DNA of 64,000 nt from assembly GCF_003790525.1 (NCBI RefSeq), contig NZ_CP033635.1; one strand, 5' to 3'. Positions within the stretch are counted from its first letter, which is position 1; each line of letters begins with the position of its first letter. Source of the DNA: Escherichia coli. GTDB taxonomy: Bacteria > Pseudomonadota > Gammaproteobacteria > Enterobacterales > Enterobacteriaceae. A program made the position numbers. Shown here piece by piece: positions 36,001 to 39,000 of the stretch.

Positions 36001-39000
36001 ATTATAATCAAGTAGTTAACAGTAATAACAAAAAATAATTTCCTGAGAAATTAACTCTGCATTCTAAAACGGCCAGTTTTCTGAAATTACCAGAAGACCG
36101 AATACATTCATGCCTGAAGAATGGATTAGAAGAAACGAGACGGAAATAGATCTATTTATCCCTGCGGAAATAATTTCTGCTGAAATTGTTTGCGGCTATT
36201 AAAAAGGTCAAACCGTCTGAGTAAATTTTATCCAGTTACAAACAAGTATTACCTCCAGTGTATTGGTAGCTGTTAAGCCAGGGGCGGTAGCATACCTGAA
36301 GAGAATAGGGTCACATCATCAAATGGCAAGAAGTGGATTTGAAGTCCAGAAAGTCACCGTAGAGGCATTATTTCTACGAGAAATACGAACACGCTTTGGT
36401 AAGTTCCGTCTGGGATATCTGTGGGCGATTCTCGAACCCTCTGCGCATTTGCTGATACTGTTGGGCATTTTTGGTTACATTATGCACCGCACGATGCCAG
36501 ACATCTCATTCCCGGTGTTTTTACTTAATGGCCTGATTCCCTTTTTTATCTTTAGCAGTATCAGCAATCGTTCTGTAGGTGCTATTGAAGCGAATCAGGG
36601 GCTGTTTAATTATCGACCAGTAAAACCCATCGATACGATCATTGCGCGTGCATTGCTTGAGACACTGATTTACGTTGCTGTTTATATATTGCTTATGCTT
36701 ATCGTCTGGATGGCAGGCGAATATTTCGAAATAACAAACTTTTTACAACTTGTGCTTACCTGGAGTTTGTTAATCATTCTTTCATGTGGCGTTGGCTTAA
36801 TATTCATGGTCGTTGGTAAAACCTTCCCTGAAATGCAAAAGGTCCTGCCGATACTGCTTAAGCCGCTGTATTTCATCTCCTGCATCATGTTCCCTCTACA
36901 CTCGATTCCGAAGCAATACTGGTCATATCTACTCTGGAATCCATTAGTGCATGTCGTAGAGTTAAGCCGCGAGGCAGTTATGCCTGGCTATATCAGCGAA
37001 GGCGTGAGTCTGAATTACCTGGCAATGTTTACATTGATAACTCTGTTCATTGGTCTGGCGTTATACCGAACTCGTGAGGAGGCAATGCTGACATCATGAT
37101 TACTTATCACTAGTATAAAACAGGAACAACATCATAGAAACATCAAAAAAACAAAAGTATATATCTATTGTATTAAAACTTTAAAATCAGGCTGAATAAT
37201 GTTAACAGCTATAATTCCGATAGATCTGAAGCGTAGACCTAAAGATATAATTAGAAAAGCAATAAATATTGCTGAGGCAACAAAAAATAATAATATAAAA
37301 GTTATATTTGGTCATGGGAATCGTTTCACTACATATGATCGCACCTTTACAAGATTGTTAAATGGGTATGAGAATGTCCATGTAAAATCATGCGATAATT
37401 TTTCTAAGGCCATAAATGCATCTCTATTAAGAAATCAGGCGTTTAAATCAGTTGAAAGTGAATATGTTATATTACTGGATGTGGATATATACCCTGATTT
37501 TAATTTATTTGAAAAGTATAAAGAGAAAATAAAATCTGGCATAAAGCCGTTTTATATTTTGCCATGCCTATATTTAACAAAATACGGGACAAGTATATTA
37601 AATGATAGAAAGGCTTCAATTGAATCATTAAAAAAAAAGTACTTTGCGTTTTCTAGGAAAGAGTTTTTGCATTTAGCCAGCCCTTCTTCTATTACAATAT
37701 TAAAATCAGCTGATTATGAAACACTTCATGGTTTTGATGAGAGTTTTCGAGGTCATGGCTATGAAGATTTTGATTTCTTGGTGCGCTTGTATAACCATTA
37801 TTTTATACCTAAAGTAAAGGCTGATTTTTTGGCCGATAGGCCATGTCATTCTCCATTGTTTGTCACAGGGTTTAGACGATACTTAGGCGAATACTGTTTA
37901 GATATTTTATTGCATAAAGACTTTGCGTTTCATTTATACCATAATAAAAACAGGAATGAAGATTATTATATAGCTAGAACTGAAAATTATCATATATTCA
38001 AACAGAAGCACAAAAAAAATATAAGCAATGAACGATATTACGATTCAACGTTGCTTATGTTATTTATTAAACACTGCATTGATAAGGGGGAGGACATTCG
38101 AAATTATAGCATATATTTCGATAATAAACCTGGACATATAGACCGTTACGATACGTTACGACGAAGAATTAAATTTTTGCTAAATCAATAAATTTTAGTG
38201 AAGGTGTGTTGTGAAAATTAAAAAGATCAAAAAACTTTTTAAAAATCCCAAATCATTTATTGCGGACTCTCGTTATTTTAATTTTATAAATAGTAAAAAA
38301 AAAGTTGATAATAAATTAGAAATAGGATTTATTGTAATTTCTCAGAACCATGATTTATCAAGATACTCAATAGATAGTATAATACAGGCAAACAATGCAG
38401 CATCAAAATCTTTCCCTTATATCGTTATACATGACTACGATGAAAAATGTGGTACTGACACTATACATACTATAGTTAAAAAACTTGATACACCATACAT
38501 AAAAATCCTCTTTGATGGAGAAAAAATACACAGGGATTTTATTATTAAATTTTCAAATCACAATATAGATCCTAACAATAATGATATAATATTACATGCA
38601 TTTTCTACAAATTCAAATGTAAAACAGGTAGATGGTTTATTATCTAGTTCTAAAGATATATCATTCAATAATCAGTTGTGGAAAGAACATGCGGTTTTGT
38701 TATTTTCTACGCTAATAATTAAATCTGACTTAATATTAAATACTAGCAAAATACTTCATCACGGTGGAAGAATTATAGATGCGCTAAATGTGCTTCGTAT
38801 TTTTAGAGAATGTGAGGAAATGGACTATGTTTTATATTTGAATGATATGTATTCTTTCAATAGTGCCTCGCTGAAACTGGAGGAAAAGATAAAAGTATTG
38901 ATGGAGGATGAGTTATTATTAAAAATAACATTTGCAGAAATCTTTGAACATGTAAGCTTGGGGGGGAGGAATGTTTTTTATAGGAAGACGTTGTTTTATT

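What the first reader, a model, noticed from the sequence alone, without database searches (positions are those of the whole stretch)
36271..36300. ops element with a variant 3' extension 33 bp before kpsM, governing an unusually long region 3 transcript
The RfaH-recruiting 8-mer GGCGGTAG is present at 36283-36290, but the following bases (CATA) differ from the usual extended ops sequence (CGTG). Because the serotype genes are embedded after kpsM, RfaH-dependent antitermination would have to sustain transcription across about 12 kb of AT-rich DNA (kpsM through the region 2 operon ending 48216).
Basis: partly seen in the sequence, partly recalled or inferred. Interest (0 to 1): 0.35.

Follow-up and report, generated by a model that had tools for sequence, protein, structure and literature searches.

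The report
Ordinary capsule-operon RfaH loading site
This is the well-known JUMPstart/ops signal in front of the E. coli capsule export gene kpsM; its "variant" ending (CATA) is a common allele that was already shown to load the antiterminator RfaH in the model strain CFT073, so the finding is real but ordinary.

Summary
GGCGGTAG lies at 36283-36290 and is followed by CATA. It sits 33 nt before the kpsM ATG (36323). About 11.9 kb of 27-33% GC genes follow on the same strand.

It is the 3' end of a full 39-nt JUMPstart element (36256-36294; Rfam RF01707, 53.6 bits against a cut-off of 35). The window is E. coli, 100% identical to canine isolate CUVET17-1418.

- **Wrong comparator.** E. coli kps leaders do not carry CGTG. 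The commonest form is GGCGGTAGCGTA (at least 1116 complete genomes).
- **The variant is common and tested.** The window's GGCGGTAGCATA occurs in about 270 genomes, including CFT073, LF82 and NCTC86. Published RfaH ChIP-seq in CFT073 lists exactly this 12-mer at kpsM. Its RfaH peak is the strongest in that genome (about 71-fold) and spans 11.3 kb.
- **No link to the gene order.** The difference from the major kps allele is at position 10, an "n" in the consensus GGCGGTAGnnTG. The same capsule locus in ST69 strains carries CGTA.

Twelve kilobases is within the observed RfaH range. The split kpsM / two genes / kpsT order is real. It occurs in 39 complete genomes, is probably K52, and rearrangement of this kind is reported for K52.

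Verdict: already known, low interest.

The parts
35570..35583 (+). Approximate position of the region 3 promoter (PR3) -10 region and transcription start, placed by homology only
   Evidence: The literature puts PR3 741 bp upstream of kpsM in K5. The window leader is collinear with the K5 leader at 97% identity, which places the start near 35582. This is inferred, not tested. The generic promoter scan gives nothing above chance.
35583..36322 (+). Long untranslated leader of region 3, about 740 nt
   Evidence: There is no ORF here. The stretch is 95-97% identical to the kpsM leaders of K5, CFT073 and LF82 strains. CFT073 and LF82 carry about 116 extra bases in it.
36256..36294 (+). JUMPstart element (39 nt): CAGTGTATTGGTAGCTGTTAAGCCAGGGGCGGTAGCATA
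   Evidence: It matches Rfam RF01707 over the full length of the model at 53.6 bits (gathering score 35) and is the only such hit in the window. It aligns with the JUMPstart of CFT073 wzx and rfaQ.
36283..36294 (+). ops 12-mer GGCGGTAGCATA (RfaH loading and pause site on the non-template strand)
   Evidence: It is identical to the RfaH-bound ops of CFT073 c3698/kpsM.
36323..37099 (+). kpsM (ABC-2 permease of the capsule exporter)
   Evidence: Pfam ABC2_membrane, E 1e-15. RefSeq annotation of the identical genome.
37096..37113 (+). Five-codon remnant of a kpsT start (ATGATTACTTATCACTAG) overlapping the kpsM stop
   Evidence: Homology to canonical kpsMT loci ends at 37102. The same ATGATTAC begins the real kpsT at 42117.
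37199..38191 (+). Serotype glycosyltransferase (galactosyltransferase-related) lying between kpsM and kpsT
   Evidence: Pfam Glyco_tranf_2_2, E 2e-23. RefSeq annotation.
38211..41945 (+). 1244-aa TagF-like (CDP-glycerol glycerophosphotransferase family) protein lying between kpsM and kpsT
   Evidence: Pfam Glyphos_transf, E 3e-41. RefSeq annotation.
42117..42797 (+). kpsT (ABC ATPase), divergent allele and no longer overlapping kpsM
   Evidence: Pfam ABC_tran. It is 78% identical to K5 KpsT. RefSeq start taken.
43017..48216 (+). Rest of the serotype-specific genes: acyltransferase, 248-aa transferase, HAD phosphatase and a 525-aa hypothetical protein
   Evidence: GC is 0.29-0.33.
49790..53084 (-). 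kpsS and kpsC, the start of convergent region 1, marking the end of the ops-governed unit
   Evidence: Pfam Capsule_synth, E 5e-91 and 6e-105. Annotation.

Best explanation
The feature is the canonical JUMPstart/ops element of the region 3 (kpsM) leader of an E. coli group 2 capsule locus.

Proposed mechanism:
1. Transcription starts at PR3, about 740 nt upstream.
2. When RNA polymerase reaches the ops, the non-template strand GGCGGTAG is exposed. Its small C3:G8 hairpin flips out G5 and T6, and RfaH binds them.
3. RfaH then stays on the polymerase, excludes NusG, and suppresses Rho- and H-NS-dependent termination.
4. This allows transcription through kpsM, the two embedded serotype genes, kpsT and the remaining serotype genes, about 11.9 kb at 27-33% GC.

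The 12-mer GGCGGTAGCATA is not a defective or special variant. It is one of two common kps alleles and is identical to the CFT073 allele that is experimentally RfaH-bound.

Shown here: the sequence, the JUMPstart membership, the allele frequencies, and the identity to the CFT073 site.

Inferred from the literature: RfaH loading and antitermination in this particular strain.
For: - Full-length Rfam JUMPstart hit at 36256-36294, above the gathering score, and the only one in the window.
- Alignment with the wzx and rfaQ JUMPstarts of CFT073.
- The element lies in an untranslated leader, on the strand of the operon, 28 nt before kpsM, as published for K5.
- The same 30-mer, including CATA, is present in CFT073.
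- Data set S2 of PMC9765446 lists the c3698(kpsM) ops as GGCGGTAGCATA, RfaH-bound in wild type. The ChIP peak spans 11,295 bp with fold enrichment 70.9. RNA polymerase occupancy collapses in the rfaH deletion.
- A at position 10 also occurs in the bona fide hlyC ops, GGCGGTAGCATG.
- The published consensus is GGCGGTAGnnTG, so position 10 is free.
- Positions 3-8 carry the RfaH recognition and are intact here.
- No second ops-like site lies on the + strand in the operon.
- No excess of promoter-like or terminator-like motifs.
Against: - No experiment exists for this strain or this K locus.
- The kps ops lacks G12, the pause-enhancing base (TG at positions 11-12). Single substitutions at most ops positions lowered RfaH stimulation in a lux reporter, so a quantitative difference between the CATA and CGTA alleles cannot be excluded.
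- Internal promoters ahead of kpsT or the acyltransferase gene cannot be ruled out from sequence.
Confidence: 0.93

Rival explanations
1. The CATA ending weakens pausing or RfaH loading. This locus would then be expressed less well, or would need compensating features to complete its long transcript.
For: TG at positions 11-12 is described as pause-inducing, and G12C abolishes the U11 pause in vitro. Nearly every single ops substitution lowered RfaH stimulation in vivo.
Against: The identical 12-mer gives the strongest RfaH ChIP peak in CFT073, 70.9-fold against 30.6 at wzx and 19.0 at rfaQ, both of which carry the CGTG consensus. All kps alleles seen here have A12. The CATA allele is in about 270 complete genomes with several different K loci. 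The same K locus works with CGTA in the clinically successful ST69 lineage, so no allele-locus coupling is visible.
Confidence: 0.1
2. The distal genes (kpsT and the genes after it) are transcribed mainly from internal promoters in the AT-rich intergenic gaps (41946-42116 and 42798-43016). The ops would then matter only for kpsM and the first two genes.
For: kpsT is uncoupled from kpsM and is preceded by a 171-nt AT-rich gap. AT-rich DNA contains many promoter-like hexamers. From my own knowledge, internal promoters are reported in K5 region 2.
Against: Promoter-like sites are not enriched over shuffles (70 against 82 +/- 11). In CFT073 the RfaH signal is continuous over the whole unit from a single ops, and polymerase occupancy falls toward the end of the unit without RfaH. 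Read-through from PR3 is reported as essential for region 2 expression.
Confidence: 0.12
3. The 8-mer is a chance occurrence with no function.
For: Four copies of GGCGGTAG occur in the window, and 3 of 100 shuffles reach that number. The other three copies lie inside coding sequence.
Against: The full 39-nt JUMPstart match has E 7e-11. The position is conserved in 1648 genomes. The identical site is experimentally bound by RfaH.
Confidence: 0.01

Closest known systems
kpsM (c3698) leader ops of E. coli CFT073 (K2), mapped by RfaH ChIP-seq (Hustmyer et al. 2022, PMC9765446)
   Same: Identical 12-mer GGCGGTAGCATA and identical 30-mer context. Same distance to kpsM (-40 from G1). Same gsp-kps chromosomal setting. 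Single ops per unit.
   Different: Different serotype genes downstream. CFT073 has contiguous kpsMT and a unit of about 9 kb, and its leader is about 116 nt longer.
K5/K1 region 3 promoter-leader-ops (Stevens et al. 1997; Xue et al. 2009; reviewed in PMC8960920)
   Same: Same leader at 97% identity. The ops lies 28 nt before kpsM. RfaH-dependent read-through into the serotype genes.
   Different: K5-type leaders carry GGCGGTAGCGTA (G at position 10) and five other nearby SNPs.
JUMPstart/ops of the rfaQ (waaQ) and wzx (O-antigen) operons
   Same: Same 39-nt architecture (CAGTG...GGTAGCTGT.AAGCC.GGGGCGGTAGC.T.). Same Rfam family.
   Different: Those carry the full consensus ending CGTG, whereas kps ends in TA.
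hlyC ops (GGCGGTAGCATG)
   Same: Shares A at position 10. It is a bona fide RfaH target.
   Different: It keeps G12, lacks the upstream JUMPstart half, and lies about 630 nt from the first gene.

Membership tests
JUMPstart / ops element (Rfam RF01707; RfaH recruitment site) | Scores at or above the curated gathering score of the JUMPstart covariance model over its full length | tested here: met
   53.6 bits against 35, model positions 1-38 of 38, at 36256-36294 +.
JUMPstart / ops element (Rfam RF01707; RfaH recruitment site) | Intact core GGCGGTAG (positions 1-8; bases 3-8 needed for RfaH recruitment) on the non-template strand of the operon | tested here: met
   Exact 8-mer at 36283-36290 on the strand of kpsM.
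JUMPstart / ops element (Rfam RF01707; RfaH recruitment site) | T at position 11 (the pause position) | tested here: met
   T at 36293.
JUMPstart / ops element (Rfam RF01707; RfaH recruitment site) | G at position 12 (a consensus feature of GGCGGTAGnnTG; not strictly defining) | tested here: not met
   A at 36294. All kps alleles examined have A12. The RfaH-bound CFT073 sites at kpsM (CATA) and c1882 (CGTA) also lack G12. Validated members therefore violate this consensus position.
JUMPstart / ops element (Rfam RF01707; RfaH recruitment site) | Located in an untranslated 5' leader, upstream of the first gene of a long operon | tested here: met
   28 nt before the kpsM ATG, with no ORF over it, followed by eight co-oriented genes.
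JUMPstart / ops element (Rfam RF01707; RfaH recruitment site) | RfaH binds there and distal expression depends on RfaH | not testable with these tools
   Shown by ChIP-seq for the identical sequence in CFT073, not for this strain.
E. coli group 2 (kps) capsule locus | Conserved region 1 genes (kpsE, D, U, C, S) convergent with the kpsM unit, next to the gsp/yghD cluster | tested here: met
   kpsS, kpsC, kdsB(kpsU), kpsD and kpsE lie on the - strand after 49790, and yghD/gsp lie upstream.
E. coli group 2 (kps) capsule locus | Contiguous, overlapping kpsM-kpsT pair (canonical region 3) | tested here: not met
   kpsM and kpsT are separated by 5 kb holding two serotype genes, and only a five-codon kpsT start remnant follows kpsM. 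[quoted passage not shown]
K52 (KL52) capsule locus | Sequence identity to the K52 reference locus (UMN026, CU928163) | not tested
   The reference is not in the searchable collection. The assignment is inferred. The locus is 99.3% identical to that of an O15:H18 ST69 genome. G2-positive ST69 O15:H18 and O17:H18 isolates are typed K52.

The most novel reading that the evidence does not exclude
Here kpsT sits 5 kb downstream of kpsM, behind 28% GC DNA, and has lost translational coupling to kpsM. The export ATPase itself, and not only polymer synthesis, may therefore depend on RfaH anti-silencing. The two kps ops alleles (CATA and CGTA, both lacking the consensus G12) might set different read-through efficiencies and so tune capsule export stoichiometry between lineages.
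Probability: 0.08. Interest if true: 0.3.

Novelty: already known. Interest (0 to 1): 0.08.

Why it matters
It matters little beyond correct annotation. The site marks where RfaH is loaded to express a capsule locus that is probably K52, a type linked in recent surveys to high invasiveness. Two corrective points are useful. The consensus CGTG does not describe kps ops elements, which end in TA. And the CATA form is already experimentally validated, so scans that score ops sites against GGCGGTAGCGTG should not flag it as aberrant.

Tried and rejected
- **Chance occurrence of the 8-mer.** Rejected. The 8-mer count is only weakly significant, but the full JUMPstart model hit and conservation in 1648 genomes settle it.
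- **Link between the CATA allele and the split kpsM/kpsT locus.** Rejected. Six other copies of the same locus (L004, L006, L013-L016) carry CGTA. CATA is found with at least three other K loci: CFT073, LF82 and strain 2/0.
- **A second ops for RfaH reloading inside the 12-kb unit.** None found on the + strand, even allowing one mismatch.
- **Internal promoters or intrinsic terminators.** Consensus scans gave 70 promoter-like sites against 82 +/- 11 expected, and 7 terminator-like sites against 5.8 +/- 2.1, only one of them weak and on the + strand. This is uninformative either way.
- **Direct comparison with the K52 reference UMN026.** The record is not in the collection, so the K type stays an inference.
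- **Exact census of position-10 alleles.** The 30-mer megablast counts cover about 1390 of 1648 kps-positive genomes. The remaining 260 or so carry other flanking SNP combinations and were not resolved. A hit could also tolerate a mismatch in the last two bases of a 30-mer.

Full report
**What the window is**

The region is E. coli chromosome, 100% identical to canine urinary isolate CUVET17-1418. The gene order is as follows.

| Coordinates | Strand | Feature |
|---|---|---|
| 23.5-35.3 kb | + | gsp type II secretion genes, ending with yghD |
| about 35.3-36.3 kb | + | non-coding stretch of about 1 kb |
| 36323-37099 | + | kpsM |
| 37199-38191 | + | glycosyltransferase |
| 38211-41945 | + | 1244-aa TagF-like protein |
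| 42117-42797 | + | kpsT |
| to 48216 | + | four more serotype genes |
| 48435-49544 | - | IS3 remnant |
| from 49790 | - | kpsS, kpsC, kpsU, kpsD, kpsE |

These assignments rest. This is a group 2 capsule locus.

**Checking the observation**

GGCGGTAG is at 36283-36290 and is followed by CATA. The kpsM ATG is at 36323. That is 33 nt from the last G of the 8-mer and 40 nt from the first, with 28 nt between the 12-mer and the ATG. These are the same distances the literature gives for kps: 28 bp and -40.

The 8-mer by itself is weak evidence. There are four copies in the window against 1.26 expected, and 3 of 100 shuffles do as well.

This copy, however, is the 3' end of a complete 39-nt JUMPstart element at 36256-36294. 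It matches Rfam RF01707 over the full model at 53.6 bits against a curated cut-off of 35, and it is the only such hit in the 64 kb. It aligns base for base with the JUMPstart elements ahead of wzx and rfaQ in CFT073. The downstream unit runs 11,934 nt from ops to 48216 at GC 0.27-0.33.

**Is the 3' extension a variant?**

It is a variant only relative to the general consensus.
- The published consensus is GGCGGTAGnnTG, so position 10 is unconstrained.
- RfaH recognition rests on bases 3-8, and T11/G12 promote pausing.
- Every kps leader I read ends in TA, not TG.

Using 30-mers in which any mismatch at position 10 breaks the 28-nt seed, I counted complete genomes.

| Allele and query context | Complete genomes |
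|---|---|
| GGCGGTAGCGTA (CCAAGGG...GAGATTA context) | 1116 |
| GGCGGTAGCATA (window's downstream context) | 234 |
| GGCGGTAGCATA (window's upstream context) | 256 |
| GGCGGTAGCATA (upstream context with A at 36281) | 14 |

CATA is therefore present in about 270 of 1648 kps-positive complete genomes, or about 16%. About 260 genomes with other flanking SNPs remain unresolved. Carriers of the window's allele include CFT073, LF82, NRG 857C, NCTC86 and Seattle 1946.

**The allele has already been tested experimentally**

Hustmyer et al. 2022 (PMC9765446) mapped RfaH in CFT073 by ChIP-seq. Their Data set S2A lists the c3698 (kpsM) ops as GGCGGTAGCATA, bound in wild type, 40 nt from the gene. I confirmed that the CFT073 genome carries the same sequence as the window across the ops and its flanks.

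The RfaH peak at kps spans 3518505-3529799, which is 11,295 bp. Its fold enrichment is 70.9, the highest of all loci, against 30.6 at wzx and 19.0 at rfaQ, which have the CGTG consensus. RNA polymerase occupancy collapses toward the end of the unit in the rfaH deletion. hlyC, another bona fide target, also has A at position 10 (GGCGGTAGCATG). The idea that CATA marks an impaired or special ops therefore has no support.

**Is the allele linked to the odd gene order?**

It is not. The same 12-kb locus occurs at 99.2% identity or more in 39 complete genomes, and the ST69 form of its TagF-like protein is recorded in thousands of assemblies. In six copies I read (ST69 O15:H18, FCI48 and four others) the ops is CGTA.

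Only the three CUVET canine isolates match the window's 12.1-kb unit, ops included, at 100.0%. Conversely, CATA sits in front of unrelated serotype regions in CFT073, LF82 and strain 2/0. The leader/kpsM segment and the serotype genes have evidently recombined independently.

**Length of the unit**

11.9 kb is toward the long end of the loci I compared: 5.8 kb in LF82, 7.1 kb in ES1, 9.1 kb in CFT073, and about 12.5 kb in MMC-J-0020. It is within the directly observed persistence of RfaH, which is 11.3 kb at kps and 15.4 kb at wzx in CFT073.
- There is no second ops-like site on the + strand inside the unit, as in CFT073, where each unit has a single ops.
- Promoter-like and terminator-like motifs are at chance level.

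Internal promoters can be neither shown nor excluded.

**The split kpsM/kpsT**

- Homology to canonical kpsMT loci stops at 37102.
- kpsM is followed by a five-codon remnant of a kpsT start (ATGATTAC...TAG, 37096-37113).
- The same ATGATTAC opens the real kpsT at 42117.
- KpsT is a divergent allele, 78% identical to K5 KpsT.
- Strain ES1 carries distant homologues of the two embedded genes (68-72% nucleotide identity) in the usual position after kpsT.

The locus is probably K52. It is the G2 locus of an O15:H18 ST69 genome, and such isolates are typed K52/KL52. The reference UMN026 was not available to compare, so this remains an inference.

**Mechanism**

From established work: transcription from PR3, about 740 nt upstream, reaches the ops. 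The non-template GGCGGTAG forms its small hairpin and RfaH binds. RfaH-modified polymerase then resists Rho and H-NS-StpA-promoted termination through the AT-rich genes.

Shown here are the element, its family membership, and its identity with a validated site. Inferred is that it works the same way in this strain.

**Verdict**

The feature is real and correctly recognised as an ops. It is already known, the "variant" is a common validated allele, and the transcript length is not exceptional. Interest is low.

Noticed in passing
window 37096-37113 and 42117-42124: kpsM is followed by a five-codon remnant of a kpsT start (ATGATTACTTATCACTAG). The same ATGATTAC opens the real kpsT 5 kb downstream. 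This suggests that the glycosyltransferase and TagF-like pair, or the kpsT-plus-downstream block, was joined by recombination exactly at the kpsM/kpsT overlap.
   Followed up: partly
window 36200-48300; L004, L006, L013-L016: The kpsM / two genes / kpsT locus occurs in 39 complete E. coli genomes, including ST69 O15:H18, and in thousands of assemblies. It is probably the K52 locus, but the K52 reference (UMN026) could not be compared.
   Followed up: partly
L005 (strain ES1) 9124-16216: A related locus has distant homologues (68-72% nucleotide identity) of the two embedded genes and of the 5' part of the acyltransferase gene. They lie in the canonical order kpsM-kpsT-GT-TagF-acyltransferase, so it is a possible relative of the donor architecture.
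   Followed up: partly
window 50470-50481 (+), inside kpsS (- strand gene): A second GGCGGTAG (GGCGGTAGCGAG) lies antisense within kpsS and is conserved in other kps loci. The same site is listed in CFT073 as an ops-like motif with no RfaH signal. Further copies at 10925 (+, inside the ORF 9900-11399) and 27807 (-) also lie in coding sequence and lack T11.
   Followed up: yes
window about 36033-36053, compared with L008 and L009: The kps leader differs between alleles by an indel of about 116 nt (present in CFT073 and LF82, absent here and in K5-type leaders) flanked by a 21-nt overlap. This explains the published 846-nt and 741-nt leader lengths.
   Followed up: partly
window 49137-49279 (+): Rfam isrN (Hfq-binding sRNA) hit at 123.7 bits, lying inside the frameshifted IS3-family transposase remnant (48435-49544, -) between the serotype genes and kpsS.
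   Followed up: no
window 16342-16563 (-): Rfam C0719 sRNA hit at 297 bits, in the gap between the ORF ending at 16287 and the glcA-like ORF starting at 16642.
   Followed up: no
L014 (GCA_016482945.1 / Survcare321) 9748-10695; H51 Ecol_316: Some copies of the same K locus carry an insertion of about 780 nt between the TagF-like gene and kpsT, that is, inside the ops-governed unit. Its nature was not examined.
   Followed up: no
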